Assembly: GCA_013331805.1 (NCBI GenBank)
Contig: DUFS01000073.1
Location: 3,315-18,781 of the forward strand
Reading direction: 5' to 3'
Length of the DNA: 15,467 nucleotides
Source: Candidatus Micrarchaeota archaeon
GTDB taxonomy: Archaea; Micrarchaeota; Micrarchaeia; Anstonellales; Anstonellaceae
Below, piece by piece: positions 1,636 to 13,791 of this stretch (position 1 is the stretch's first letter; every line of letters starts with the position of its first letter). Below the pieces are notes generated by a model that made no database searches, had not been told where the DNA came from, and saw only the letters and a program-made list of their open reading frames with translations. Position numbers and translations under genes: made by a program.

Positions 1636-2097
1636 TCATTGCGTCCCAAAGTAAGACTTGAATTTCGGTGTTGTCGTGAGCGTCGAGCTTCTCCCTGACT
1701 TTTTCTGGATGACAAAGCCCTTTTCCACAAGCTCGGCAACGTCCTGGTAAATCGTGGAGCCCAGCTTGTCCGCCAAGAGTGACTTTTTTATCCCGTCGCT
1801 TTTCGAAATATAGGCAAGGGTGCGAAGCGCATGCCTTGAAATCTCCCCGGCCTGCGCGAAGTCCTTGACAGCATTCACGTACTCGGGGCGAAGCCGCATG
1901 TAGTACTTGCCCTCCTCAAAGGCAATTTCAATCGCGCTGCCGCTGCCTGAATACCTCTTTTGAAGCGAATCGAGCCTCTGGGAAATGAAGCCTGGCGCAG
2001 AGACACCTATGAGCTTTCCAAGCTCGGCAACCGCCAGGGGCTTGCTCGACATGAAAAGCGCAGCCTCGATTATCCTCTCGGCCTCGGTTTCGTCCAT
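1636..2097 (-). CDS. scpB: SMC-Scp complex subunit ScpB
   Basis: IIEAALFMSSKPL N-terminus, ALRTLAYI, LVEKGFV and C-terminal TTPKFKSYFG, matching ScpB tandem wHTH motifs. AGGAGG RBS; directly downstream of scpA. Confidence 0.93.
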   Translation of the reverse strand: MDETEAERIIEAALFMSSKPLAVAELGKLIGVSAPGFISQRLDSLQKRYSGSGSAIEIAFEEGKYYMRLRPEYVNAVKDFAQAGEISRHALRTLAYISKSDGIKKSLLADKLGSTIYQDVAELVEKGFVIQKKSGRSSTLTTTPKFKSYFGTQ

Positions 2098-2143
2098 GAA
2101 AATTTCCTCCTGAAATTTTCAGACATTTTCCTTCAGGAAAATG
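2096..2143. repeat. Double inverted repeat (double-hairpin module) over the scpB start and RBS
   Basis: TGAAAATTTC(2097-2106)-ctcct-GAAATTTTCA(2112-2121), GA spacer, then CATTTTCC(2124-2131)-ttca-GGAAAATG(2136-2143). Both stems are perfect. Confidence 0.85.
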
Positions 2144-2191
2144 CTGATAAGAATCACTCATCTTAAGCGCAATTTGTACTTGCCAGCCCCT

Positions 2192-3067
2192 TCATTTGCC
2201 CTTTTTCCCATCGTCCTCCTCTTCATCGCCTTCGTAGTTGTTATTTTCCTTTACCCTTATGAATATTTCGCCAAAGAATTTTTCCTGGAAAATGGTAAGC
2301 TCCCCGTCCTGAACCAAATGCAGCAGGGGAAGCAGGGTCATTATTATTTCGAGCGGGTTTTTCTCCGTCAGTATTGAGGAAAAGGTGGCAAGTCCTTCAG
2401 AGTCTTTTTCCTCAAGCACGCGCTCGTATATCTCCCCCATCCTCTCCTCAATCGAAAACTCCGGAAGCTGGATGTTTATCACAGAGGGTATTTCGATCTT
2501 CTGCGCCTTCTCCTCCCGTTTTTTCTGGTCCTCGAACACCTTTTCCATGGCAAGGAGAAGCTCGTCCAGCGTCACCATCCTCTTGGGGGGCACGCGGGTC
2601 TTGAGCTCAAGCACGGGAATTGTTTCGGGCTCGGAATCCTCCTCCACATAGGTTTCCTCGGACATTACCTGCGCCTCCTCCTCAAAGCGAAGCGCGTCGG
2701 ACTTGAAGCGAATCAGTATCGCAGCCGCAAGAATCAGGTTGGCAGGCACCCGAAGGTCCAGCATCTCCATCTTGCTTATCCTTTCAATGTAGCTTGATGT
2801 GATTTCCACCAGGTCAATGTTCCAGGGGTCAAGCTTCCTTGAGGCGACCAGGTCAAGCAGCATCTCGCGCCAGGTGGGGAATTCCACCAGCTTTTCCAAT
2901 CGCATGTCTTCTTCCTTCATTTTCGAGGTGTCAATGTGCCCCTCCCCTGCGTCCTCTATCCCCTCCTCGCCCGAAAAATCGGCCCCCCCCTCCTCTTTTT
3001 TTCCCTTCCTTTGGCTGGGACGGGGCGCAGCGCTTTCCGAAATGCCCTCTTCCTTCTTTCTGGTCAT
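2192..3067 (-). CDS. scpA: Segregation/condensation protein ScpA (kleisin)
   Basis: LDPWNIDLVEIT, ANLILAAAILIRFKS, VTLDELL and C-terminal LLHLVQDGELTIFQEKFFGEIFI, matching archaeal ScpA. Start moved to ATG 3067 (GGTGA upstream); the ORF track starts at 3163. Confidence 0.93.
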   Translation of the reverse strand: MTRKKEEGISESAAPRPSQRKGKKEEGGADFSGEEGIEDAGEGHIDTSKMKEEDMRLEKLVEFPTWREMLLDLVASRKLDPWNIDLVEITSSYIERISKMEMLDLRVPANLILAAAILIRFKSDALRFEEEAQVMSEETYVEEDSEPETIPVLELKTRVPPKRMVTLDELLLAMEKVFEDQKKREEKAQKIEIPSVINIQLPEFSIEERMGEIYERVLEEKDSEGLATFSSILTEKNPLEIIMTLLPLLHLVQDGELTIFQEKFFGEIFIRVKENNNYEGDEEEDDGKKGK

Positions 3068-3117
3068 GGCAAAAGTAATCACCCATTCCTTATATTCCTG
3101 ACGCCGTTTCTGCGTCA

Positions 3118-3127
3118 GCTTAAAAAA
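3118..3127. promoter_or_regulatory. Putative TATA element between divergent scpA and the 3162 gene
   Basis: GCTTAAAAAA (minus strand TTTTTTAAGC) in the 94-bp divergent gap. Confidence 0.4.
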
Positions 3128-3161
3128 CACCAGCTTCCGATTATAGGGGTTAAGGGGGAAC

Positions 3162-3656
3162 ATGGGCAGGGAAAAATCAGTCAGCGAAATAACCGACGAG
3201 GCAATAGCGGACGGCGGCTACCTCACCCTAGTCTACTTTGACCTCCATGCGAAAAGCTCGGATGAGGTGAAGAACATCATGGTCGGCTTCATAAGCAAGC
3301 TCACCAAGGAAAAGGGCGTGCTTTATGCTGTGGGCGAAATAGACCAGCCGATCGAAAAGGACGGCATCTGGTCCACATGGGCCGAAGTCAAGCTCCTTGC
3401 GTCCGACTTCGCAACCCTGGTACGGATAGCTTCGCAATATTCCCCCATAGGGATTGAAATACTGCGGCCTGACAGGGTAAATCTTGCGATCGGCGACGCG
3501 CAGGGCGTGCTCCTGGACATATCCCAGACCTCGCAGAATTTCACCCGCATGATAATGGAGCGCGTGCTTTCCAAGGAAGAGGTCGAGGAGTACAAGGTCA
3601 AAATGGCGTCCAGGGCCGAGCTGGGAAAGAGGCTGCTTGAGAAAAGCAAGTCGTAA
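3162..3656 (+). CDS. Conserved-looking archaeal hypothetical protein (164 aa, alpha/beta)
   Basis: Clean ORF with an AGGGGG RBS. The pattern STWAEV...F..L.....Y.P..IEIL.P resembles uncharacterised archaeal proteins as I recall them; function unknown. Confidence 0.8.
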   Translation: MGREKSVSEITDEAIADGGYLTLVYFDLHAKSSDEVKNIMVGFISKLTKEKGVLYAVGEIDQPIEKDGIWSTWAEVKLLASDFATLVRIASQYSPIGIEILRPDRVNLAIGDAQGVLLDISQTSQNFTRMIMERVLSKEEVEEYKVKMASRAELGKRLLEKSKS

Positions 3657-3691
3657 AAAGCTGCGGTGCGCAATCCATCGCAGGTGCTTTC

Positions 3692-4441
3692 ATGGAAAAC
3701 ACTCGCATCCGGTCTGGAATTCCCGGCTTGGACACCATGCTGGGCGGGGGCTTTTTGAAAACCAGCCTGACCGTGGTGGCGGGCGGAACGGGTTCAGGAA
3801 GGACAATCTTCGTTTCGCAGTTCCTTTTCAAGGGGGCTACAGCACACAGCGAGCCGGGCCTTTTCATATCATTTGACGACCAGAAGGACTCCCTTTACGC
3901 CAACTTGTCGCAATTCGGCTGGGACCTTGCTGACTTGGAGCGCAAGCAGAGAATCGTCTTCATCGAATACCCGCACAACGAGCTTGCCGCCTTTGCCGAG
4001 CAGGAGTCCGCGATGAAGGACCTGATATCCACCCTGGGCATAAAGCGCGTTGTGGTCGACTCCATCACCCCGTTTTCGCTAATGTTCACCTCGCAGGAGG
4101 AGCGCAGGCTCAATGTCATGAAGCTTGTTTCGGCCGTGAAAAGATGGAAGGTCACTTCACTGATTTCCGCTGAGACGATCCACGGCAACGAGGACTCCCA
4201 GTTCCCGCACACAGTATCAGGAGCGGAGTCATTCGCGGATGGATTCATCCACCTCTCGTTCCACAAGATCGAGGGCAAGCGCAGGAGGGCGGTTGAAATA
4301 GTGAAGATGCGCGGCTGCCGCCACGAGCACGAAATCAGGCGCGCGCAGATCAACAGCCAGGGCTTTGCAATCGAAATCCCCAAGAAGCCCGAAGAAGCGC
4401 AGGCTCACAAGAAGGTATTTTCAGATGGCAACCAAGCTTGA
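3692..4441 (+). CDS. KaiC/RAD55 (RecA-superfamily) single-domain ATPase with degenerate motifs
   Basis: RIRSGIPGLDTMLGGG, Walker A-like GGTGSGRT, Walker B RVVVDS, ADGFIHL and IVKMRG. AGGTG RBS. Confidence 0.93.
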   Translation: MENTRIRSGIPGLDTMLGGGFLKTSLTVVAGGTGSGRTIFVSQFLFKGATAHSEPGLFISFDDQKDSLYANLSQFGWDLADLERKQRIVFIEYPHNELAAFAEQESAMKDLISTLGIKRVVVDSITPFSLMFTSQEERRLNVMKLVSAVKRWKVTSLISAETIHGNEDSQFPHTVSGAESFADGFIHLSFHKIEGKRRRAVEIVKMRGCRHEHEIRRAQINSQGFAIEIPKKPEEAQAHKKVFSDGNQA

Positions 4442-5522
4442 GATAGACCCATGGGCATCGGAGCAGTCGTTCGACTACGCCAGGCTCTTTGCCGAATTCG
4501 GCATGTCCAAGATCACTCCTGAAATTTCAGACAAGCTCTGCTCAAAGCTTTCCAGGCGCGAGGTGCTCTTTGCCCACCGCGACCTGGGCTTCTGGCTAAA
4601 GGACGCGGAAGCAGGAAAAAGCGTTGCAGTGATGTCAGGCATCAAGCCGTCCTCAGAATTCCATCTCGGCTCCAAGCTTACCGCAGACGAGCTCATACAC
4701 TTCCAGAAGAAATTCAAGGCAAAGGTGTTCTATGCGATTGCAGACCTGGAAGCGTATGCCGACAACGGGCTTGCCCTGGAACAGACGCACGAGACTGCAA
4801 TTTCAAACGTCGCGGACCTTCTTGCTCTAGGGCTGGATGAGAAAAACGCCTACATCTACAAGCAGTCGCAGGAAAAGCGCGTGATGCAGATGGCCTATGT
4901 GTTTTCGCGCAGGGCCACCCCTGCGATGCTCAAGAGCCTGTATGGCGAGAGGAATTACTCGCTTTACTTTGCCGCGCTAACACAGGTCGGCGACATACTT
5001 CTTCCCCAGCACGCTGATTTCGGGGGAAGGAAGCGCGTGATAGTTCCTGTCGGCGTGGACCAGGACCCGCACATCCGCTTTGCCAGGGACATTGCTTTCA
5101 AGGAGAAACTGGTGCAGCCAGGCGCCACCTATCACAGGATAATGAAGAGCCTGAACGGGCTTGACAAGATGAGCAAGCGCGACCCCAATGCGACGCTTAG
5201 CCTTTCGGATTCGCCCGAAGTTGCTAAAAAGAAACTGATGAACGCATTCAGCGGGGGAAGGAACACGGCTGAGGAGCAGCGGCGACTTGGCGGGGAAATA
5301 GAAAAGGATGTGCTTTACGAAATAATGAAGTTCCACTTCTTGGAGGACGACTCGCTCCTGGAGGAAATGAAAGAGGACATGGTCTCGGGCAGGCTCCTTA
5401 CGGGCGAGTATAAGCTGAAATGGATTCCCTATGCCCTCGATTGGCTAAAAAAGCACCAGGAAAGGAAAAAGGAGATGCTGCCCAGGGCAAGAAAAATACT
5501 TGAGAAGGCTGCGCAGGATTAG
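4425..5522 (+). CDS. trpS: Tryptophanyl-tRNA synthetase (archaeal type)
   Basis: IDPW N-terminus, DYARLFAEFG, HIGH-like GIKPSSEFHLGS, PVGVDQDPH, KMSK and AFSGGR..EEQRRLGG. Start ATG 4425 overlaps the upstream gene by 17 nt. Confidence 0.96.
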   Translation: MATKLEIDPWASEQSFDYARLFAEFGMSKITPEISDKLCSKLSRREVLFAHRDLGFWLKDAEAGKSVAVMSGIKPSSEFHLGSKLTADELIHFQKKFKAKVFYAIADLEAYADNGLALEQTHETAISNVADLLALGLDEKNAYIYKQSQEKRVMQMAYVFSRRATPAMLKSLYGERNYSLYFAALTQVGDILLPQHADFGGRKRVIVPVGVDQDPHIRFARDIAFKEKLVQPGATYHRIMKSLNGLDKMSKRDPNATLSLSDSPEVAKKKLMNAFSGGRNTAEEQRRLGGEIEKDVLYEIMKFHFLEDDSLLEEMKEDMVSGRLLTGEYKLKWIPYALDWLKKHQERKKEMLPRARKILEKAAQD

Positions 5523-6515
5523 CTACTTTTTCGCCCTGGCAATCGCAAGCCTTGGAACGAACGCGCATAGGACAGACTGCTCGATTTGCTCGCTCCTGTG
5601 AAGGACCCCCGCGGAAAAGTGCCCGATTGCCCCGTGCCTTTTCCCGATGTCCTTGACTCCCGCCATATCGGCTAGCACTTTTGTCAGGTCGGATTCCTCC
5701 CTCCTTATCCTTTTCGCAATTTCTTCGGGAACCACGAAGCCCATTCCCGTGCCGTAGGTTTCCTCCTTGCCGTCAAAAACGCATGCAACCGTGATGTCGA
5801 TGTGCATTCCTTTCTTCAGGGTGAACAGGCCCGACTCCATCCCAATCGAGTAATCGCACCTGCCTTTTGCCCTTTTCCAAGAAGCCTGAGCACGGTTTTT
5901 CGCACCGGAAAAAGTTTCTTCATTGAAAGGATGGTCGGGCACTCCTGATTTTTCGCTGTGGTGATGCAGAACGAATTTTTTGCCGAATATCCTGTGAAGC
6001 GCGCGGGAGGTGCCGCTCAATTTGGTAGGGTTGATAGTCCCAACCTGCACTGCCAAAGGCCGGAGAAGCTCCCCTCCCAAATCTGTTTTTCCCTCGAAAA
6101 TGGACTGGCAGGATATTTTCCGCAGGTCTTCCCCGAAAACTAGCGGAACTGAGATGATTTTGAGAGGGGGCAGGCTGTTTTTCCTGCGAAGCGAGTTGAT
6201 CCTCTGCGCGGCGGGCGTTGTTTCCTCGCTCACAATTATTGCATCCACATCTTGCATTTTTTCCGCGCCGCCTGACTCGTTTTCTATCATGTGTATTTTC
6301 GTTCGCGAAAAGAGCCCAATCCGTTTCAGGGCGGCAAGGAGCGTCCTAAGCCTTCTTGCGTATGGAAAGGAAGGGTAAATCTTGTGCCTTTTGACGTAGG
6401 AGTCGCTTGTGAGCCCTATCGTGATTTCCGAAAAGCGCCCGCATTCCCTGAGCATGGAATCGTGCCCTGCGTGCACATAGGTGAAGGTCCCCCCCAGAAC
6501 GCAAGACCTGCCCAT
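5523..6515 (-). CDS. coaD: Bifunctional phosphopantetheine adenylyltransferase (CoaD-type) / YjjX-DUF84 inosine-xanthosine triphosphatase
   Basis: N-domain GGTF..HAGH, IGLTSD, IIVSEET, IN..R and ISC (nucleotidyltransferase). C-domain VGTINPTK, SGV..P, GAKNRA, GMESGL and GAIG (YjjX). Confidence 0.9.
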   Translation of the reverse strand: MGRSCVLGGTFTYVHAGHDSMLRECGRFSEITIGLTSDSYVKRHKIYPSFPYARRLRTLLAALKRIGLFSRTKIHMIENESGGAEKMQDVDAIIVSEETTPAAQRINSLRRKNSLPPLKIISVPLVFGEDLRKISCQSIFEGKTDLGGELLRPLAVQVGTINPTKLSGTSRALHRIFGKKFVLHHHSEKSGVPDHPFNEETFSGAKNRAQASWKRAKGRCDYSIGMESGLFTLKKGMHIDITVACVFDGKEETYGTGMGFVVPEEIAKRIRREESDLTKVLADMAGVKDIGKRHGAIGHFSAGVLHRSEQIEQSVLCAFVPRLAIARAKK

Positions 6516-6519
6516 AGCA

Positions 6520-7863
6520 TTACCACGTGTACTTTACCCCGAAAAGCTCGTATATGTAGCTCACCATGAAGACGAATCCCACGAAAAACGGGTAGAGCCA
6601 GAGCAGGCACACCAACGGGAGGATGTGCCGCATCTTGGGCTCGGTCTTGGAAATTTCAAAGCTTTTTATCAGGAAGTAGGCCCAGATGGCAAGCGAGAAC
6701 AGCCCCAGCACCCAGGCTGACTGGAACGTCAGAAGGCCGTTTCCCAGGCCTGCCACGGTCGCGCTCACCCCTGCAGAAAAATTGTAGGTGAATGGGGAAA
6801 GCCAGTCAAAGAAATTCCTGCTCCAGCTCATCAGGGTCCATGCCATGAAAAGCGCGGCGAAAAAGCCGCTTCCAAGGGTGGTTGGGAGTATGAATATCCC
6901 GAAGTCGCCGTACGCAGGGTTGAAGAACAGGTCAATGTACTTGAGTATGTTCATCACCCCGCCGCGGTACCAGCGAAGCCGCTGGCGGAAAAGCCTGCCG
7001 AGATCAGCAGGAACATCGGTAAGGACCGAGGTCTCGTGGCATGCGCGGATCTTGTACCCGTTCTTCTGCATGCGAAGCGCAATCTCCATGTCCTCGGTCA
7101 GGTTCTGCTCGTCAAAGCCCCCAAGTTTCTGCAGAATGGCTTTCTTGTAAAAGGCGGTCGGGCCTGGCGTCACGTATAAGCCGTCTATGCTCGCAATGGT
7201 GCGGAAGAAAAAGCCGAACGATATCCAGTATTCGATTTCCTGAATCCTCTGCAGGATGCTCCTGGGGTTGTTGACGCACACGAAGACGACCACCGAGGCG
7301 ACGCGCTCGTCCTCGTAGAAGTGCTTTATCACCTTCTGCAGGCAGTCCTCGGCAGGATAGGTGTCCGAGTCTATGCACGCCACTATCTCGCCCTTCGCGT
7401 GCTTCATGGCAAAGTTGAGCGCAGCCGCCTTGCCGCGGTGGAGTTTGTTCGGAAGCAGGGTTACCCCGGGCGTTTTCGCAAGCAGGTCAAAGGATCCATC
7501 GGTCGAGCCGTCGTCCACCACCAGTATGTCGAATTTCCCGGAGTACTTCATTTTCTTGCAGGCTTCAAGGCAGTTGAAAATCGTGCCCCTTGCATTGAAG
7601 GAGGGGATTACCACGGTCACGTGGGGGTATTTCTCAGGCTCAGGGATGGGCGGCTCTTCCTTTGCCCCCTCCAGCCAAAGGATCAGGTACGAGCTGAAAA
7701 TGAAAATCGAAAGGATGGTGTATCCCAGAAATATGATCTGGTAGGAGATTGACAGGAACACGAATACGCAAACCGCAAGCACCAGCATGCCCAGTATCGC
7801 AAGCTCGCGCCGCTCGGGTATGTGGATGGTGGAACGCTTGTGCTCTGCTTTCTTCACTTCCAA
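6520..7863 (-). CDS. Membrane GT2 glycosyltransferase (processive, cellulose-synthase-like motif set)
   Basis: DDGSTD, GKAAALN, DSD, TED and QRLRW motifs, with N- and C-terminal TM helices. Start proposed at TTG 7863 with GGGTGA upstream; the ORF-track start at 7908 overlaps the upstream gene. Confidence 0.92.
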   Translation of the reverse strand: MEVKKAEHKRSTIHIPERRELAILGMLVLAVCVFVFLSISYQIIFLGYTILSIFIFSSYLILWLEGAKEEPPIPEPEKYPHVTVVIPSFNARGTIFNCLEACKKMKYSGKFDILVVDDGSTDGSFDLLAKTPGVTLLPNKLHRGKAAALNFAMKHAKGEIVACIDSDTYPAEDCLQKVIKHFYEDERVASVVVFVCVNNPRSILQRIQEIEYWISFGFFFRTIASIDGLYVTPGPTAFYKKAILQKLGGFDEQNLTEDMEIALRMQKNGYKIRACHETSVLTDVPADLGRLFRQRLRWYRGGVMNILKYIDLFFNPAYGDFGIFILPTTLGSGFFAALFMAWTLMSWSRNFFDWLSPFTYNFSAGVSATVAGLGNGLLTFQSAWVLGLFSLAIWAYFLIKSFEISKTEPKMRHILPLVCLLWLYPFFVGFVFMVSYIYELFGVKYTW

Positions 7864-7879
7864 TACTGTCACCCGAGAA

Positions 7880-8533
7880 CTAGCCTTCAGCCGCCAGGTA
7901 TTCTTCAATTTCTTCCTCTGACTTCAGCCCCTGCAGGACCACGCTGTCGTCTATCACCAGTGCAGGGACCTTTTCTATGCCGTGGCGCTTGATAAAGACA
8001 TTGATGAACGGCAATTCAGTATCGTTGGGGAAGGCAAACACGCGCAAATTTGGGTGTTTTTTGCGGAGGCTGTCCAGCACCCCGCCCTGTGCCCGGCACT
8101 CGGGGCAGTCCAATTTCACGCGGTAGAAAAAAAGCACGGTGGTGTAGGGCGAGGAGTCGCAGAATTTCGAGGTTGCCCGCATGTTCAGGTAAAGCCCTGC
8201 GTTGGCAAGGTAATACTGGCTCTTTATGCGCTCGTACTCCGAGTTGATGATGTTGCTCTGCTCATAGTACTGTATCTTCTGCGAAAGCTCATATGCCCTG
8301 GCAGCCTTGGCCTCGGTTGTCTTGGAGACGTATTCGCAAAGCTCGCTTGTGGAGTTGCCCATTGTCTGCGCATAGAGGAAAAGCATGCGCTCGGACTCAG
8401 ACTGGAACATCAATTCGTCCACGCTGGAGCGGAGCTCTCCTGCCCGCATGGAGTCGAGCTGGGTTATGAAGAAGAACCCGAGGAGTGTAATGGCCAGCGT
8501 CAGAAGACCTGCTTTTATGTATGGGCTTGCCAT
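7880..8533 (-). CDS. Membrane-anchored thioredoxin-fold (CxxC) protein
   Basis: N-terminal hydrophobic helix, a helical region, then VLFFY...DCPECRAQG and VPALVID (Trx-fold cis-Pro). GAGGT RBS. Confidence 0.82.
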   Translation of the reverse strand: MASPYIKAGLLTLAITLLGFFFITQLDSMRAGELRSSVDELMFQSESERMLFLYAQTMGNSTSELCEYVSKTTEAKAARAYELSQKIQYYEQSNIINSEYERIKSQYYLANAGLYLNMRATSKFCDSSPYTTVLFFYRVKLDCPECRAQGGVLDSLRKKHPNLRVFAFPNDTELPFINVFIKRHGIEKVPALVIDDSVVLQGLKSEEEIEEYLAAEG

Positions 8534-8575
8534 AGCATCTAAACCTCTTGCCTTGTTTTTTGGTCCAGGGAAAGT

Positions 8576-10042
8576 CTAGCTCGGAGAAGGCCCGCCCTTG
8601 CTCTCCTCCCACATCCTGTGGATGAGCGAGCGGAGCTCATCGCGCTTGCGCTCGAACTCCCCTTCCTCTTCCTGCGACAGTTTCACTTTTTCCACAAACG
8701 ACACCGCCTTTTCCCTTGCCTGCAAAGCAATCGGCGCTGCAGCCGCCTTCATGGCCCTTGCCGGCTCGGACTCCATTCTTACTATTTCAGCCTCCTTGTG
8801 AAGCGCCTTGACATTTGCCTCCAGAAGCTCCTGCTCGCGCTTGAGCTCACGCAGCATGAAGGAAACCTTGCGAATCTCCTCCTTGTCGACAATCCCTTCG
8901 GCCCCGCCCCTCAGGGATTCCAGCGCAGCCATCTGGGAGGAGAGCTTCTTGGAAACATCAGATTGCTTGGTTGCAATATCGTTGTTCGCGTTTGCTATCT
9001 CCTCGGCAATGTCGACGTACTCCTCCTTCAGCTTTTCCTGCGCGGAAAATGCCTCGGTCTCCATTTTCTGGAGCGATGACAGCTTGGAGGTTTGCTTTCG
9101 CACCAGGGAAATCGCATCGGCAAGCTGTTCTGCGACCGCCTCCTTCTGCCTTTTCGCATCGTCGGCCATGCCGCGAAGCTCGGCAAGCTTTTTCTTCGCG
9201 CCTGTTATTGAGCCTTCCTGGTCCGCGTATTCAGAGATTTTCCGCTCGATTTCGATTACCCTGCCGTGCAGGCTCTGCTGCTCCTCCGCAAGGGCTTCCA
9301 TCGCCCCGGCGAGCTCACCCTTCAGGCTTTTTATCTCGGAAAGCTCGGACTGGAGCTCGGCAATGCGCTGGTCGCCTTTGCCCTGCTCGATCTGCTTCCT
9401 GAAGTCCTCCAGCCTTGCCTCGAACGCGCCGAAGAATGTCTCGTTGTCATCGATCTGGGACTGGAGCGTGGATTCGAAGTTCTTGAGGACTGAAAGCTCC
9501 TTGTCAATGCTGCGCTCAGGCTTCTCCCCCCCGCCTGCCCCGACCTGCGGGCCCAACGCAAGCAGCTTTTTCTTCAGCCTGTTCAGCTTTTCGGTTGCCG
9601 ATTTTGCCTGCTCCGAGTATTTCTTGTCAAGCGCTGCAAGCTCGCCTTTCATCTTTTCCGCTTCCTCGGGGCTCATGAGCGAAGTTGTTTCCAGCTTGTG
9701 GAGCTCCCCCTCGATTGCCTCCAGTTCCTCCCCGCCTTTATGCACCTTGGAAAGCAATGCCTCTATGTCCTCCTTGGTCCTTGTTGCCTTTGCCTCCAGC
9801 TTCTCGGTTTTCTGCGCAACGTATTCGCTTGATGGCGCGTGCCAGGTAAGGTATACTTTGGTGAGTTTGTAATCTATAGTTATGAGCTTCTCTTCCTCAA
9901 GCACGTGCGCCCAGTCCTCAATGGTCCGCTGGGGCTGCTTCAGCTCCTTTGCGGCAGCGCCGATTTCGATCTTGCCGCGCTCCTTGACCAGGCGTATCAG
10001 CTGGTCCACTCCCGTGGATATTAGTATGTCATCGAGCGCCAT
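8576..10042 (-). CDS. Hypothetical protein: N-terminal winged-helix-like domain plus long coiled coil (488 aa)
   Basis: TGVDQLIRLVKERGKIEIGAAAKELKQPQRTIEDWAHVLEEEKLITIDY fits an HTH/wing pattern, followed by about 400 aa of E/K/L/A heptad-rich sequence with no Walker motifs. Start moved to ATG 10042 (GGAGGT RBS). Confidence 0.85.
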   Translation of the reverse strand: MALDDILISTGVDQLIRLVKERGKIEIGAAAKELKQPQRTIEDWAHVLEEEKLITIDYKLTKVYLTWHAPSSEYVAQKTEKLEAKATRTKEDIEALLSKVHKGGEELEAIEGELHKLETTSLMSPEEAEKMKGELAALDKKYSEQAKSATEKLNRLKKKLLALGPQVGAGGGEKPERSIDKELSVLKNFESTLQSQIDDNETFFGAFEARLEDFRKQIEQGKGDQRIAELQSELSEIKSLKGELAGAMEALAEEQQSLHGRVIEIERKISEYADQEGSITGAKKKLAELRGMADDAKRQKEAVAEQLADAISLVRKQTSKLSSLQKMETEAFSAQEKLKEEYVDIAEEIANANNDIATKQSDVSKKLSSQMAALESLRGGAEGIVDKEEIRKVSFMLRELKREQELLEANVKALHKEAEIVRMESEPARAMKAAAAPIALQAREKAVSFVEKVKLSQEEEGEFERKRDELRSLIHRMWEESKGGPSPS

Positions 10043-10063
10043 CGCAAAACCTCCAAATCCAAT

Positions 10064-10073
10064 CCTTATAAAG
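10064..10073. promoter_or_regulatory. Putative (bidirectional) TATA box between the divergent wHTH genes
   Basis: CCTTATAAAG reads TTATAAA on + and TTTATAA on -, within the 80-bp divergent gap. Confidence 0.5.
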
Positions 10074-10122
10074 ATTTGTGCGGAACTCCTATTCGTAAAA
10101 TCCATCCGCAAGATGGGGAAAA

Positions 10123-11568
10123 GTGGCCAGCATGATCAGCCCGGACTTCGAAATCAGGCTCAGGCGCGAGGCAAAGACCTCTCTCCAGGTTTTCAAGGAC
10201 CAGTCCATACTCCGCAGGAAATTCGGGGATGACGGAGTCAGGCTCTATGACAGGATATTGGGGGACAAGACCGCGCACGAGCTTTTGGAAGAGCTTGGCA
10301 TGAACGAGGAAAAATTCGTTTCAATACTCGAGTTCATGAACAACAACGGCATGGTCTCGGTCGTGGAGGACGCCGAGCTTGAGTCCGCAAAATCCGCTGC
10401 AGGCAAGCAAGGCGAGGAAAAGGAGGAGTGGGCGCAAGAAAGCGAGCCGGCACTCGGCAAGGAGCCTGAAGAAAAAGAGGAAGGGCTAAGCGAAAAAGAA
10501 GAGGTTGAGGGCAAAGGCGGAAAAGAAGAAGGGGAAGGATCAAGCGAAGAAGAGGAGGGCAAAACAGAAGAAGACAAGGAAAAGCCTGGGCCCGAAAAAT
10601 CCCTGCCTGACGACCAGGGGCGCGATGAAGCGCTGCGCGGCATGCGGGGAAGAAAGCCCCGCCCCCCAAACAGGGCCGAAGTTCCTGAGGAGGAAGGCGA
10701 GCCTCTGCTTTCGCCTTTGGAAAAGGTGCTATTCGAAAAGTACGGGGACGTGGGCGTCCGGATTTACAATCTTATTGACGGGGAGAAAACAGCCGAGGAA
10801 ATACTGCGGCAGACAGGTGTCACCGAAGCCAGGCTTGTGGAAATACTCGAGTTCATGGACGAGCAGGGGATCATCAAGCTTGAAAAGCCGCCCGAGAAAG
10901 AGCCAGGGGAAAAACCCGAGGAAGAGGAGCGCTCAGCCGAGCCCGAGCAGGAGCCGCGCTTCAAGCCCATGATCGAGGAGGAGCCGGAAGAGATGCCCTT
11001 CACCCCTCCCAAGGCGCTTGAAAAGGAAAAGCCAAAGCCGAGAAAAGACGAGATAATGGAGGAGGAAGAGGAGCTGGAGCGCGAAATCGTGATGGTGGAC
11101 GTTCCTGAGCTTGCCAAGCTTTCGCTAATGCAAAAGGCGCTTCTCTTTGCCGAGCTTTCCACCAAGTTCGGAAAAAGCGCCAAGGACCTGATTGAGATGG
11201 TCGACAGCAAGCGGGACTTCATTGACCTTTCGCTTGGCACAGGGCTTTCATTTTTCGACGTTGACGCGATAATGGCGTATTTCGGGAAAAAGGGGCTGAT
11301 GAGCTTCAGGCAGCTGGGCCGCGAGGACATTAAGAAAAAGTACGGCGAGGACGGCTTCGCAATATACAAGCGCTTTGGCAGGGACGGACTCCTGCTTTAC
11401 GAAATGATCGGCAAGGAAGCCAGCCTCAAGGACATAATCGTCAAAAGCAAGCTGGAAGTTGACCGGGCGATAGAAATACTCATTTTCATCCACAGGGTCC
11501 TGGGGCTGGACGTCCCGATCGACAAGGGGCTGATTTATCGCCAGCTGGGAATGCGCAAACCGTATTAG
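10123..11568 (+). CDS. Hypothetical protein with four ~48-aa winged-helix-like repeats and acidic linkers
   Basis: Repeats of K[FY]G..G..[LI]Y..I.G.KT..E[LI]....G......[VI].IL.F....G begin at nt 10219, 10738, 11164 and 11371, separated by E/K/P-rich low-complexity linkers. Start is GTG 10123 or ATG 10132. Confidence 0.88.
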   Translation: MASMISPDFEIRLRREAKTSLQVFKDQSILRRKFGDDGVRLYDRILGDKTAHELLEELGMNEEKFVSILEFMNNNGMVSVVEDAELESAKSAAGKQGEEKEEWAQESEPALGKEPEEKEEGLSEKEEVEGKGGKEEGEGSSEEEEGKTEEDKEKPGPEKSLPDDQGRDEALRGMRGRKPRPPNRAEVPEEEGEPLLSPLEKVLFEKYGDVGVRIYNLIDGEKTAEEILRQTGVTEARLVEILEFMDEQGIIKLEKPPEKEPGEKPEEEERSAEPEQEPRFKPMIEEEPEEMPFTPPKALEKEKPKPRKDEIMEEEEELEREIVMVDVPELAKLSLMQKALLFAELSTKFGKSAKDLIEMVDSKRDFIDLSLGTGLSFFDVDAIMAYFGKKGLMSFRQLGREDIKKKYGEDGFAIYKRFGRDGLLLYEMIGKEASLKDIIVKSKLEVDRAIEILIFIHRVLGLDVPIDKGLIYRQLGMRKPY

Positions 11569-11595
11569 GTTTGCGCAGACATGCCCGCAGGCATG
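11551..11595. repeat. Double inverted repeat (double-hairpin module) enclosing the stop codon of the 10123 gene
   Basis: TGCGCAAACC(11552-11561)-gtatta-GGTTTGCGCA(11568-11577), GA spacer, then CATGCC(11580-11585)-cgca-GGCATG(11590-11595). Confidence 0.88.
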
Positions 11596-11609
11596 AAGAT
11601 GAGAAAGCC

Positions 11610-12038
11610 CTACCGATTCAGTATCCTGCTCAGTGCCATCCTCTCAATCGCAAGCCCGCCTTCGCTGTATTTTCCAATTTTCTTGCCCCATTCGGGCAAA
11701 GCCAATCGCCTGCATTTCTTTAGGAGCAGCTTCTTCTTCAGTTTCGAAATCGGAATTCCCTTTTTTGACACCAGCACGAAGTCCTTCACGCTTTTTGCCC
11801 CGATTTTCCGCGCTGCCGAGGAAAAGTTCGTTTCATTTGCAAGGAACAGCAATGCCTCGTTTGCCATCTTGCCAGAAATGTTTTTTTTCGCCGAGAATTC
11901 GGATTCGGCAAGCAAGAACGCGGCTTCCAGCTCCTTTTTGGTACGCATTGCTGCGGGATCGAGCAGCAGCATTCCTTGCGCAGCCTTCACAAGCTCGTGC
12001 ATGCTTGCGGCGGACGAGGAGCAGCGCAGGATCAGCAT
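11610..12038 (-). CDS. cgi121: KEOPS complex subunit Cgi121 (divergent)
   Basis: A...F..KKNISGKMANEALLFLA.....SSAARKIGAK and C-terminal IERMAL match the Cgi121 pattern. ATG 12038 lies about 23 nt from TTTAAA, so it is probably leaderless. Confidence 0.75.
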   Translation of the reverse strand: MLILRCSSSAASMHELVKAAQGMLLLDPAAMRTKKELEAAFLLAESEFSAKKNISGKMANEALLFLANETNFSSAARKIGAKSVKDFVLVSKKGIPISKLKKKLLLKKCRRLALPEWGKKIGKYSEGGLAIERMALSRILNR

Positions 12039-12060
12039 GCGTAGGTGCTCCGGTATAACC

Positions 12061-12068
12061 TTTAAAAA
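12061..12068. promoter_or_regulatory. Putative TATA box shared by divergent cgi121 and rps8e
   Basis: TTTAAAAA in the 79-bp divergent gap. Confidence 0.55.
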
Positions 12069-12117
12069 CAAGTGCCAGGATAAGCATTCCGCATTCGCGA
12101 TTCGAGGAGGTTATGGA

Positions 12118-12498
12118 ATGGAAAATTATCACGGCGCATCAGGATCCACCATCAAGGGCAGCGGAGGCAAGCGTGGCAGGCACTCGGACAAGAAGCTCCG
12201 ATACATCGGCGGGATTTTCACCGCAACTAAAGTGGCAAAAGAGGATGTCCGGATCATGAAAAGCAAGCGTGGGAACGCCTTGAAGATAAAGCTCAAGGCC
12301 GCAAGGTTCGCAAACGTGCTCACCAAGGACGGCATGAAGCGCGTGGCAATAAGAAACGTGCTTGAAACCCCTGACAACCGCCACCACGCCCGCCAGAACA
12401 TCATCACAAAAGGCGCTATCATCGACACCGAGGCAGGCAAGGTCAAAGTCACCAACCGCGTAGGCCAGGACGGGGTTGTGAACGGAAGGCTTCTGTAA
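12118..12498 (+). CDS. rps8e: 30S ribosomal protein S8e (eS8), 126 aa
   Basis: RGNALKIKLK, NVLETPDNRHHARQNIITKGAIIDTEAGKVKVTNRVGQDGVVNG. GAGGAGGT RBS at 12104-12111 fixes the start at 12118 inside the longer ORF-track frame. Confidence 0.97.
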   Translation: MENYHGASGSTIKGSGGKRGRHSDKKLRYIGGIFTATKVAKEDVRIMKSKRGNALKIKLKAARFANVLTKDGMKRVAIRNVLETPDNRHHARQNIITKGAIIDTEAGKVKVTNRVGQDGVVNGRLL

Positions 12499-12628
12499 GG
12501 CAAGGGAAGTTCACAACAAGTGGCTCGGAAGCCACTGTGTCGTCAACGGACGCCTGCTGTAAGGCTTTGGAAGTTGACGATAAGTGGCGCAACAGCGCCA
12601 CTGTGTCGTGAACGGTCGTCTACTCTAG
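12473..12628 (+). repeat. Tandem 64/66-bp double-hairpin units carrying recoded copies of the rps8e 3' end
   Basis: Units at 12473-12536 and 12537-12602 plus a partial third at 12603-12628. Each begins with codons for VVNGRLL*, and the two full units end in AAGTGGC...GCCACT hairpins. Confidence 0.92.
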
Positions 12629-13791
12629 AGCGAAAGCAGAATCGAAGGAATGATTATCAATCCCATTACGTGAGTCCTTCTAATTCCAAGGAGCGGCGGC
12701 AGGATCCCAATCGCAGTCGCAGTGGCAAAAACCAGAAGACCCGCCCCTCCTGAAATTATCGCCACGGCGCAGGAAAGGTAGGCAAGCACCAGGAGGTTGA
12801 TCTTCTTGGTGTCAATCTGCTGAAGCCTGTCGGCATATTTTGATAGCCTCATCAAGAGGAATGCGGAAACGCCAATGGAGACAAGCAGCACCCCGACCAG
12901 GGCAGGCAGGTCTGAAGGCATAACCGGCTCTATCTCGTTCATGATGGCAAGCGCACCCTCCCGCGCCTTGCCAATGGAAAGCAGCGCGGCAAAGGCGAAA
13001 ACGCCATGCGAAGCTGCTATTGATGACACAAGCGCAAGGAATTTCTTCGCATCGTCTGTGACAAGGATGGCTGAGGCAAAAATGGCAATCTGCGCAGGAG
13101 CGGCAATGCCGGGAAGCAGGTCAGAAAGCATTCCGAACAGCACGCCTGCGGCCACATAGGGCAGGAAGTCAAGACGGGTGCTCTCCTTTTTCTGCCTTGG
13201 TATTTTTCGCTGCTGCGTGAAGGAAAGAAGAATGCCGCTTGCTGCAAAGAGCCCTGAAAAGGAAGGGAAGAGCGGGTCATTAACCGCGCCGCGCAGGGTG
13301 GCCAATCCAAGAGCGCCTGAAAGCAGGAAAACGAATGCAGCAAGGGCGATTTTTCCTGCTGCCCTTTCAGACAAAAGCAGATAAATCGAAGCGCCAACCA
13401 GGATTATCGCCATGTGCGGACTAATTGCGCCAAAGGCAATTGGCAGAAGCACAAGCGACACAGGCAGGAGCAGTGCCGATGCCCCTGCGGAGAGCATCAC
13501 AGAAAAGGCGCACACTGCCAGAGCTTGCCGCCCCCTTCCCTCAAGGGCCATCCTGTGTCCCGGGAGCACGGACGCAACAACAGTGTCATCTGGTATTGAA
13601 AGGAAAATAGAGGGGAAGAACTGGAATACCAGATGAGCGCCAAGGACCGCCACGATAATGTATGCGAACGCTTCCGGATCGATCGGAAGGGTGGACAATA
13701 CGGATGCTATTGTGTTGGAGTGTATCCCCGGCACCAAGCCTGAGAAAATCCCAAGAAGGATCCCGGCCAAGAGGGCGATTACCTGAATCAT
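12625..13791 (-). CDS. Tripartite tricarboxylate transporter TctA-family (DUF112, archaeal) membrane protein
   Basis: GIFSGLVPGIHSNT, FFPSIFLSIPD, VLPGHRMALEGRG, LFPSFSGLFA and IRRTHVMG motifs; hydrophobic throughout. Confidence 0.9.
   Translation of the reverse strand: MIQVIALLAGILLGIFSGLVPGIHSNTIASVLSTLPIDPEAFAYIIVAVLGAHLVFQFFPSIFLSIPDDTVVASVLPGHRMALEGRGRQALAVCAFSVMLSAGASALLLPVSLVLLPIAFGAISPHMAIILVGASIYLLLSERAAGKIALAAFVFLLSGALGLATLRGAVNDPLFPSFSGLFAASGILLSFTQQRKIPRQKKESTRLDFLPYVAAGVLFGMLSDLLPGIAAPAQIAIFASAILVTDDAKKFLALVSSIAASHGVFAFAALLSIGKAREGALAIMNEIEPVMPSDLPALVGVLLVSIGVSAFLLMRLSKYADRLQQIDTKKINLLVLAYLSCAVAIISGGAGLLVFATATAIGILPPLLGIRRTHVMGLIIIPSILLSL

What the first reader, a model, noticed from the sequence alone, without database searches (positions are those of the whole stretch)
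2096..12628. Unifying hypothesis: a 'function-preserving' micro-insertion system acting at gene boundaries
Four modules at three loci within about 10.5 kb share one layout: replacement of host functional sequence, then an arm complementary to the module's first 9-10 nt, a 1-2 nt spacer, a short hairpin with a 4-nt loop, and finally the displaced old host sequence. There are two sequence classes (CAGACAT/CAT..ATG and A-AGTGGC..GCCACT). Established: integrative elements can restore the 3' end of the target gene, and IS200/IS605 (HUH TnpA) ends use a guide at the foot of a hairpin that base-pairs with the cleavage site. Inference: these may be minimal non-autonomous elements or excision scars of a mobile-element family whose target is specified by base pairing, allowing insertion into a compact genome without breaking genes. 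No candidate enzyme is encoded in this window, and I do not recognise the pattern as a described element.
Basis: inference. Interest (0 to 1): 0.85.

Follow-up and report, generated by a model that had tools for sequence, protein, structure and literature searches.

The report
Tiny mobile hairpins that spare genes
The four small double-hairpin inserts in this window belong to a large family of roughly 50-base mobile DNA elements in tiny Micrarchaeota archaea that settle at gene starts and ends and bring along a replacement start signal or gene end, so the host gene keeps working; the enzyme that moves them is unknown.

Summary
All four modules are at the stated places and fold as two adjacent hairpins (z -4.7 to -7.1). 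Each is followed by a recoded copy of the host sequence it displaced.

They are not unique to this window. A covariance model finds 26 copies in this genome. It finds copies in 18 of 23 genomes of the genus and in 43 of 141 genomes of the order. One relative (G022) holds at least 11 near-identical 55-nt copies at unrelated sites, with no target duplication and no inverted ends.

Elements sit next to an A-rich site (ATGAAAAA-like) that resembles their own left end. They cluster at gene boundaries. One subtype always rebuilds a start codon and supplies a GGAGG ribosome-binding site.

Gene-end copies and their echoes differ almost only synonymously: 43 synonymous against 4 nonsynonymous codon changes.

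Target choice by base pairing is not supported for the main subtypes. No enzyme was found: Y1/HUH transposase, TnpB and reverse transcriptase do not track the elements.

Earlier notes of this scan report the same kind of element in other Micrarchaeota and in CPR genomes. I found no paper on it.

The parts
2096..2146 (+). Module L1 (CAGACAT class, ribosome-binding-site-in-loop subtype). Hairpin 1 at 2097-2106/2112-2121 with CCTCC in its loop, GA spacer, hairpin 2 at 2124-2131/2136-2143, tail CTG. It lies inside the start codon of ScpB on the minus strand.
2147..2161 (+). Displaced old ScpB leader (minus strand ...TGATTCTTAT). With the module removed it abuts GGACGAA, as in relatives.
1636..2097 (-). 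ScpB gene. The AT of its ATG start codon (2095-2097) is supplied by the module end, and GGAGG in the hairpin-1 loop lies 8 nt upstream.
11551..11598 (+). Module L2 (CAGACAT class). Its first 18 nt encode MRKPY plus stop and form the end of ORF 10123-11568. Hairpin 1 at 11552-11561/11568-11577, GA spacer, hairpin 2 at 11580-11585/11590-11595, tail AAG.
11599..11616 (+). Echo of L2. It encodes MRKPY again with all four non-Met codons changed synonymously. The stop is lost, and the echo overlaps the stop of convergent ORF 11610-12071.
12475..12538 (+). Module L3a (S8e type). It carries the working last 7 codons plus stop of the S8e gene (12118-12498). Hairpin 1 at 12475-12483/12509-12517, hairpin 2 at 12519-12525/12530-12536, tail GT.
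12539..12604 (+). Module L3b (S8e type), a second tandem copy with its own VVNGRLL-stop coding stretch (12539-12562). Hairpin 1 at 12540-12547/12573-12580, hairpin 2 at 12583-12590/12595-12602, tail GT.
12605..12628 (+). Third VVNGRLL-stop copy (echo). Its TAG overlaps the stop of the convergent TctA-family gene (12625-13791), the compact arrangement expected for the undisturbed locus.

Best explanation
The four modules are copies of a family of non-autonomous, gene-less mobile DNA elements of about 45-90 nt.

Layout of one element:
- Hairpin 1.
- A 1-2 nt spacer with an invariant G.
- Hairpin 2.
- A 3-nt tail plus A.

SHOWN:
- The whole double hairpin moves as one unit.
- It has no inverted ends and makes no target duplication.
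- It lands in one orientation immediately 5' of an A-rich site (A, T/A, G/A, AAAAA) that resembles its own left end.
- It also lands inside the hairpin-2 loop of other copies, and next to other copies, which gives nested and tandem arrays.
- Both hairpins are kept by compensatory changes.
- Because the left end resembles the target, the junction rebuilds what was cut: the AT of a start codon, or the first codons of a gene tail.
- Surviving copies at gene boundaries carry what the gene needs. This is GGAGG in the hairpin-1 loop, or a spare set of terminal codons with a stop inside hairpin 1, or the last bases of a tRNA.

INFERRED (about 0.35-0.4 for this step):
- The elements are cut and pasted in trans as folded single-stranded DNA.
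- The enzyme recognises hairpins and works like, but has not been shown to be, an IS200/IS605- or RAYT-type Y1 HUH transposase.
- Long spare gene ends arose when an element's left boundary shifted into the neighbouring gene.
- Such units then spread to the same site in related genomes.
For: Family and mobility:
- 26 hits in this genome at E<=0.001. Hits in 18 of 23 genomes of the genus, with 0 to 59 per genome. Hits in 43 of 141 genomes and 15 of 43 genera of the order.
- G022: 9 identical plus 2 near-identical 55-nt copies among the 20 loci fetched, with unrelated left flanks. 12 co-located hairpin-1/hairpin-2 pairs of one subtype.
- Filled against empty site at ScpB.
- The S8e end carries 0, 1 or 2 modules across 22 genus relatives. 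A co-occurring relative's contig has 64 nt where the window has 134.

Structure:
- 98.3% of cells are paired against 80.1% in shuffles.
- 16 of 19 pairs show changes on both sides.
- The covariation score is 0.453 against 0.130, reached by 0 of 500 shuffles.

Target:
- Site logo from 57 copies; the left flank is unrelated, 2.9 of 10 nt identical.
- Three nested insertions at the same spot of hairpin 2.

Gene boundaries:
- 20 of 41 modules lie within 40 nt of a gene stop, against 4.6 +/- 2.0 for random placement.
- Only 7 of 41 lie deep inside ORFs, against 27.5 +/- 2.9.

Function sparing:
- 10 of 10 genuine copies of the GGAGG-loop subtype abut a start codon.
- Spare gene ends at S8e, the wHTH gene and the L2 gene in several genomes.
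- A tRNA 3' end lies inside hairpin 1.
Against: - No autonomous copy was seen: the two hairpins are never separated by a gene.
- Y1 transposase does not track the elements. Across 141 genomes: both 15, element only 28, Y1 only 23, neither 75. G022, G103 and G065, all rich in copies, have no Y1 hit.
- This genome has only Y1 fragments.
- The ends of resident IS200-like and TnpB elements do not resemble the modules.
- Mismatches in the hairpins show no strand bias: 7 G.T against 7 A.C.
- The long echoes are not explained by ordinary insertion, since recent copies carry none.
- Their pattern is unexplained. Synonymous sites are near saturation while amino acids are identical, including lineage-specific residues.
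Confidence: 0.6

Rival explanations
1. Integration of a small circle, or homing by recombination. The element with its target-like segment recombines with the similar chromosomal segment, either site-specifically or by homologous recombination with DNA from co-occurring relatives. This leaves one copy of that segment on each side. Gene-end variants then spread between related genomes using the gene body and the echo as homology arms.
For: - Copies are flanked by similar segments of 8-39 nt.
- Some 5' arms match the echo better than they match their own 3' arm (C54; G014).
- A metagenome S8e module pairs one arm type with the other type's partner arm (L213).
- Hairpin-1 and hairpin-2 types reassort.
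- A relative at 88-90% identity co-occurs in the same samples.
Against: - The G022 copies keep a constant 5' arm whatever the target, and share only about 8 nt with it.
- No integrase lies beside the copies examined.
- Donors as distant as the synonymous divergence implies should also differ in amino acids, yet the copies share lineage-specific residues.
Confidence: 0.2
2. Spread without a dedicated enzyme, by replication template switching. Hairpins next to A-tracts stall replication. The nascent strand jumps by microhomology (ATGAAAAA) to another copy, copies the element, and returns through the A-rich site that follows it.
For: - Both junctions lie in the same A-rich motif.
- No enzyme tracks the family.
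- Tandem arrays are common.
Against: - B-type left ends share little microhomology with their targets.
- Ends are sharply defined in at least 11 copies.
- Class-1 copies hit one exact spot of hairpin 2 three times.
Confidence: 0.1
3. The hairpins are not mobile. They are ordinary functional RNA or DNA signals (terminators, mRNA-stabilising 3' hairpins, translation signals) that arose locally, with gene ends duplicated by slippage.
For: - A-type hairpin 1 looks like a two-way terminator: an A-run, a stem and a T-run.
- S8e-type stems tolerate G.T but rarely A.C on the sense strand (by eye).
- Many copies lie at gene 3' ends.
Against: - Near-identical copies lie at unrelated loci.
- Copies are nested within copies.
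- Copies occur inside coding frames and inside a start codon.
- L2 and the S8e type lack T-runs.
- Counts range from 0 to 59 among species of one genus.
Confidence: 0.05
4. RNA-level elements. The modules are spliced out of transcripts like archaeal bulge-helix-bulge introns, or spread through an RNA copy and reverse transcription. In that case the echo would be the coding end of the mature mRNA.
For: It would explain why echoes stay coding-like.
Against: - The folds are two independent hairpins with no bulge-helix-bulge geometry (by inspection).
- No Rfam family matches.
- No reverse transcriptase was found in G022, G021 or G006.
- Echoes do decay in some genomes.
Confidence: 0.03

Closest known systems
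IS200/IS605-derived miniature elements (PATE) and REP/REPIN elements moved by RAYT Y1 HUH transposases
   Same: - Gene-less and hairpin-based.
- No inverted ends and no target duplication.
- Orientation-specific insertion next to a short site that resembles the element's own end.
- Multi-copy, and often at gene 3' ends.
- The properties of the known families are recalled. I saw the REP/REPIN papers only as search listings.
   Different: - No Y1 or RAYT gene tracks them.
- Their ends are unlike those of the resident IS elements.
- They are two different tandem hairpins of about 50 nt, not an inverted REP pair.
- They carry ribosome-binding sites, start codons or spare gene ends.
Double-hairpin elements of fungal mitochondrial DNA (Paquin, Laforest and Lang 2000)
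   Same: - Two adjacent hairpins of roughly 50 nt.
- Thought to be mobile.
- I saw this only as cited in PMC5910586 (passage read). The rest is recalled.
   Different: - A different domain of life.
- No sequence relation was tested.
- To my recollection, no systematic rebuilding of gene ends is described for them.
Integrative elements that target the 3' end of tRNA or protein genes and carry a replacement end
   Same: The interrupted gene is completed by an element-borne copy, and the displaced original remains downstream. This holds for the S8e, wHTH-gene and L2-gene ends and for a tRNA 3' end.
   Different: - Those elements are kilobases long and encode an integrase; these are 45-90 nt with no gene.
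- Their repeats are near-identical att cores; here the copies are recoded synonymously.
Insertion with long target duplication (Nobusato et al. 2000; Furuta et al. 2010, PMC2853133, passages read)
   Same: An insert flanked by direct repeats of tens of bases that align with a single copy in the empty genome.
   Different: - The published cases are restriction-modification gene units with repeats about 93-100% identical by the tables seen (43-47 of 46-47 bp; 384/412 to 417/423 bp).
- Here recent insertions show no long duplication.
- Here the long repeats are 70-80% identical, with almost only synonymous differences.
Rickettsia palindromic elements (recalled, not checked)
   Same: Small palindromic repeats that can sit in frame inside protein genes without destroying them, as with the in-frame copies at C7 and C55.
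   Different: - Rickettsia elements are longer and are translated as extra peptide segments.
- They do not supply stops, start codons or ribosome-binding sites.

Membership tests
IS200/IS605-derived miniature element / REP-RAYT system | No terminal inverted repeats and no target-site duplication | tested here: met
   G022 copies have a constant 55-nt unit with unrelated left flanks. The ScpB filled/empty comparison leaves only a 2-nt ambiguity. Left flank against arm is 2.9 of 10 nt identical.
IS200/IS605-derived miniature element / REP-RAYT system | Conserved hairpins at or near both ends | tested here: met
   Two hairpins with 98.3% of cells paired and 16 of 19 pairs showing compensatory change. 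Fold z-scores from -4.7 to -7.1.
IS200/IS605-derived miniature element / REP-RAYT system | Orientation-specific insertion beside a short specific sequence | tested here: met
   Target logo A, T/A, G/A, AAAAA from 57 copies. Class-1 copies sit at the same spot of hairpin 2 in 3 of 3 nested cases.
IS200/IS605-derived miniature element / REP-RAYT system | A Y1 HUH transposase (TnpA or RAYT) in the genomes that hold the elements | tested here: not met
   Of 43 genomes with elements, 28 have no PF01797 hit, including G022, G103 and G065. The odds ratio is about 1.75 over 141 genomes. The assemblies are incomplete, so absence is not proven.
IS200/IS605-derived miniature element / REP-RAYT system | Ends shared with an autonomous element of the same genome | tested here: not met
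   The IS200-like ends in G003 and G019 and the TnpB element ends in G000 have different hairpins and termini. Only the TTTAT flank of two TnpB copies resembles the target.
Classical MITE (DDE transposon derivative) | Terminal inverted repeats flanked by a fixed-length target duplication | tested here: not met
Integrase-type integrative element restoring a gene end | Integrase gene, and near-identical att repeats flanking the insert | tested here: not met
   The modules encode nothing. The neighbours of the G022 copies examined are housekeeping genes. The repeats are recoded, not identical.
Archaeal bulge-helix-bulge intron | Two 3-nt bulges separated by a 4-bp helix at the two boundaries | tested here: not met
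   The folds show two separate perfect hairpins. The check was by inspection only; no dedicated tool was available.
Any curated RNA family (Rfam 15) | Match to a covariance model | tested here: not met
   The only hits in the window and 7 module-bearing loci at E<=0.1 were two tRNA genes.
Intrinsic terminator | GC-rich stem followed by a T-run | tested here: inconclusive
   A-type hairpin 1 has flanking A and T runs. L2 and the S8e-type modules have none. No RNA data were available.

The most novel reading that the evidence does not exclude
These are a new class of minimal mobile DNA of ultra-small archaea, and, if the earlier scan notes hold, of CPR bacteria too. The 50-90-nt cassettes are moved by an as yet unknown hairpin-reading activity, and they carry recoded spare gene termini. 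The spare copy and the displaced original are both kept coding because the element leaves and re-enters reversibly, so either copy may be the one in use. This would let selfish DNA colonise essential genes in genomes that have almost no spacer.
Probability: 0.25. Interest if true: 0.85.

Novelty: new variant of a known kind. Interest (0 to 1): 0.7.

Why it matters
These genomes are about 1 Mb with roughly 90% coding sequence, so almost any insertion should hit a gene. This family shows one way for selfish DNA to persist there: it lands on gene boundaries and rebuilds them.

It gives a concrete, testable set of substrates for finding a new hairpin-directed DNA enzyme, or an enzyme-free route. 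These are a 55-mer with defined ends and a defined target motif.

It matters for annotation. The modules create false long ORFs, false gene ends and apparent duplications in DPANN genomes.

The pattern of saturated synonymous change with identical peptides between copy and echo is an unusual population-genetic signal. It may report how often such elements leave and re-enter.

Tried and rejected
- Relaxed structural scan (G.U pairs and one wobble allowed): 387 hits against 156 and 156 in two shuffles. Too noisy to use.
- First alignment of all 18 modules was too heterogeneous for a model. A class-1 alignment was also too heterogeneous, so I used a fixed pattern instead. 2 of its 12 hits looked like chance matches.
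- RNA evidence: no RNA holder was listed among 20 runs.
- Contigs of four runs: the records at 99% identity or more that cover the two S8e modules keep them, none joins across them, and no joint within one population was seen.
- Reverse transcriptase: no hit in G022, G021 or G006.
- TnpB: over the cut-off in only 6 of 23 genus genomes.
- Viral contigs: three exact 17-mer hits, none matching the model, so chance.
- Genes between two G022 copies: M50 peptidase, FEN1-like, ZIP and KaiC-like. No candidate enzyme.
- ARAGORN missed both tRNAs next to modules. Rfam found them.
- Which S8e copy is the native one: identity to 14 module-free relatives gives no consistent answer.
- Metagenome scan for young, identical long duplicates: 16 S8e-like ends among 80 loci, 2 with a module and echo, both diverged.
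- Considered and dropped by inspection: diversity-generating retroelement repeats (differences are synonymous, not adenine-specific), integron attC sites (no R-box consensus), translational bypass, and a copy-specific guide rule.
- Literature: searches for double-hairpin elements, Micrarchaeota plus miniature inverted-repeat, IS605 plus MITE plus archaea plus hairpin, and long target duplication gave no paper on these elements.


Full report
SETTING

The window is G000:C78:3315-18781, part of a 1.19-Mb, 83-contig archaeal assembly with 52.9% G+C. Earlier notes of this scan label the organism Micrarchaeota; I did not test that label.

Pfam names most genes of the window:
- HisRS and thioredoxin.
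- ScpB (1636-2097, minus strand) and ScpA.
- A KaiC-like ATPase and TrpRS.
- A glycosyltransferase.
- A TrmB-like protein (10123-11568).
- Ribosomal protein S8e (12118-12498).
- A TctA-family transporter (12625-13791, minus strand).
- An amidohydrolase.

No transposase, recombinase or nuclease is among them.

As single strands, each of the four modules folds into two adjacent perfect hairpins. The z-scores run from -4.65 to -7.14, and 0 of 200 shuffles fold as well in any of the four.

After the S8e gene, the last seven codons plus stop (VVNGRLL*) occur three times. After ORF 10123-11568, MRKPY is encoded twice. All differences in sense codons are synonymous.

At L1 the module lies inside the ScpB start codon. 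With the 49 inserted bases removed, the old leader (…TGATTCTTAT) abuts GGACGAA. Relatives read …TGATTTTAT or …GTGATCCTTAT directly before GGACGAA. The module's own …CAT end rebuilds the ATG, and the GGAGG in its hairpin-1 loop lies 8 nt upstream.

IT IS A GENOME-WIDE FAMILY

- A strict scan of the whole genome gives 37 bins against 5, 6, 2, 9 and 13 in five dinucleotide shuffles. The scan required a perfect stem of at least 8 bp, a 0-3 nt spacer, and a perfect stem of at least 6 bp with a 3-5 nt loop.
- Most hits share one consensus.
- A covariance model built from 11 copies finds 43 matches at E<=1 in this genome and 26 at E<=0.001.
- It misses the CAGACAT class. I aligned 11 copies of that class from this genome.
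- Across 73 matches (62 distinct) from about 20 genomes, 98.3% of cells are paired against 80.1% in shuffles. 16 of 19 pairs show changes on both sides. The covariation score is 0.453 against 0.130, reached by 0 of 500 shuffles. Sliding the partner columns gives at most 60% paired.
- Mismatches show no strand bias: 7 G.T against 7 A.C.
- Rfam has no matching family.

IT IS MOBILE, OR WAS RECENTLY

- In the genus, 18 of 23 genomes have matches, with 0 to 59 per genome. The five genomes without any are the small ones of 0.8-1.0 Mb (at most 150 candidates are scored per genome).
- In the order, 43 of 141 genomes and 15 of 43 genera have matches.
- In G022, 9 of the 20 loci I fetched carry an identical 55-nt unit and 2 more differ by one base. 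Left flanks are unrelated and right flanks are A-rich.
- Pattern searches give 14 copies of that hairpin 1 and 14 of that hairpin 2. Twelve are co-located and none is separated by a gene.
- Hairpin-1 and hairpin-2 types occur in all four combinations.
- Three class-1 copies in this genome lie inside hairpin 2 of other copies, at the same position. A fourth nested case is in G021.
- The S8e end shows 2 modules in G000, G010 and G019. It shows 1 module in G013, G022, G006, G008 and G015 (perhaps also G012), and none in 12 other genus genomes.
- A contig of a relative at 88-90% identity in two runs has 64 letters where the window has 134.

TARGET AND ENDS

From 57 copies the site just after the tail reads as follows:
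- A at position 1 (54 of 57).
- T or A at position 2 (36 and 14).
- G or A at position 3.
- A at position 4 (51), position 6 (47), position 7 (49) and position 8 (42).

The left flank is unrelated to the arm, at 2.9 of 10 nt identical.

The element's own left end resembles this site. That explains why copies stack in tandem.

A copy's arm fits its own target hardly better than it fits other copies' targets: 6.23 against 6.02 +/- 0.09. The 9 B-type copies (arm AGGACAAA) all sit by ATGAAAAA-like sites. Target reading by the hairpin-1 arm is therefore not supported for the main subtypes.

Comparison at two gene ends shows that the A after the tail belongs to the element. Where relatives have TTG or CTG, the echo reads ATG.

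GENE BOUNDARIES AND SPARING OF FUNCTION

- Of 41 modules in this genome, 20 have the stop of an ORF of at least 100 aa within 40 nt. Random placement gives 4.6 +/- 2.0, with a maximum of 12 in 2000 trials.
- Only 7 of 41 lie 90 nt or more inside a long ORF, against 27.5 +/- 2.9. The gene set was my own crude ORF call.
- The GGAGG-loop subtype gave 12 pattern hits in G000, G001, G015 and G003, and 0 with the reversed control. Ten are genuine modules, and all 10 abut the start codon of a gene on the opposite strand.
- The same gene is hit in two genomes in two cases: S10 in G000 and G003, and an L40e-like gene in G000 and G001.
- One module overlaps the last 5 bases of an intron-bearing tRNA and is followed by those bases again. 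Another abuts a tRNA 5' end.
- Two copies lie in frame inside coding regions. One of these sites is also occupied in G013.

SPARE GENE ENDS AND THE UNEXPLAINED PATTERN

Long echoes occur at S8e and at a 166-aa wHTH gene.
- G000: MKKALSMLEKTY* is encoded twice, with 7 synonymous and 0 nonsynonymous changes.
- G010: MKKALSQLEKTI* is encoded twice, also 7 and 0.
- G017, G003 and G022 carry modules five codons before the stop.
- G001 has the same module as G000, but its echo is internally deleted.

Over 10 copy/echo pairs, chosen as at least 15 of 24 nt identical, I count 43 synonymous and 4 nonsynonymous codon changes, 5 stop-to-stop changes and 1 lost stop. This threshold leaves out the decayed echoes of G019, G013 and G015. 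Differences fall 11, 6 and 46 on codon positions 1, 2 and 3.

About 60-75% of degenerate codons differ, which is near saturation. Yet both copies share lineage-specific residues, while sister species differ at 2-3 of 12 residues in the same peptide (my count from that output).

Three simple readings fail or fall short:
- Duplication followed by drift of a dead copy does not fit.
- Import from species-level relatives does not fit.
- Recent G022 insertions carry no long echo, so ordinary insertion does not make them.

I read the long forms as elements whose left boundary moved into the gene and which then spread to the same site in close relatives. Alternatively, they are pairs in which both copies are exposed to selection because the element leaves and returns. 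Neither reading is shown.

THE ENZYME

- This genome has 7 TnpB genes and only fragments of Y1 transposase.
- Across 141 genomes the counts are: elements and Y1 together 15, elements only 28, Y1 only 23, neither 75.
- TnpB is over its cut-off in 6 of 23 genus genomes.
- Reverse transcriptase is missing from three copy-rich genomes.
- The ends of resident IS elements do not resemble the modules.
- The only hint is that two TnpB copies are flanked by TTTAT, which resembles the reverse complement of the target.

COMPARISON WITH WHAT IS KNOWN

The logic is closest to IS200/IS605-type single-strand transposition and its gene-less derivatives:
- no inverted ends;
- no target duplication;
- hairpins at the ends;
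- a site that resembles the element's own end.

Two defining features of that family were tested and not met, so I do not file the elements as members.

The architecture recalls mitochondrial double-hairpin elements (cited in PMC5910586). The outcome recalls integrative elements that restore gene ends, and 'insertion with long target duplication' (PMC2853133).

Four literature searches found no description of these elements.

Earlier notes of this scan describe the same kind of element at other genes in other Micrarchaeota, and similar ones in CPR bacteria. They are unchecked AI notes. They agree with what I see here, and they gave me the lead to the long-target-duplication papers.

VERDICT

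I rate this a new variant of a known kind (small hairpin mobile repeats) with an unusual gene-sparing habit.

Noticed in passing
G000 C37:6983-7027 and C77:12873-12923: A different pair of adjacent perfect palindromes built on the word TGCAACG...CGTTGCA. It is not related to the modules and may be another repeat or operator family.
   Followed up: no
G000 C65, C16, C47, C40, C66, C28, C50; C42:1220-1798; C56:2935-3231: Seven TnpB genes and only broken Y1 transposase genes in a 1.19-Mb genome. Two TnpB copies begin right after TTTAT and end in ...ATGTCAC.
   Followed up: partly
window 11581-12498: The 305-aa ORF listed here is an artefact. It runs through the L2 echo and the antisense of ORF 11610-12071, then continues in frame into S8e. 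Modules of this family can create false long ORFs.
   Followed up: partly
G000 C71:10331-10440 (L015 242-351, minus strand): A tRNA gene with an intron of about 38 nt. ARAGORN missed it and Rfam found it. A module overlaps its last 5 bases.
   Followed up: partly
G000 C7:678-731 and C55:8446-8502; G013 (L065): Modules inserted in frame, adding 18-19 residues near the C-termini of two proteins. By recall these look like MsrA and a CoA-binding protein; I did not check this with Pfam. The second site is also occupied in G013, where the module brings a stop.
   Followed up: partly
window 2147-2194: ScpA of this genome stops about 45 nt before the TGA that directly precedes the ScpB start in many relatives. 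The ScpA-ScpB junction has been remodelled here.
   Followed up: no
G008 (L130), end of the ortholog of ORF 10123-11568: A lone hairpin 1 that includes the stop codon, with no hairpin 2 and no echo. G006 has the same hairpin 1 plus hairpin 2 and an echo. It may be a precursor or a remnant.
   Followed up: no
window 8576-10111, 3162-3656 and 11610-12071: Three ORFs of 511, 164 and 153 aa have no Pfam match at E<=0.01.
   Followed up: no
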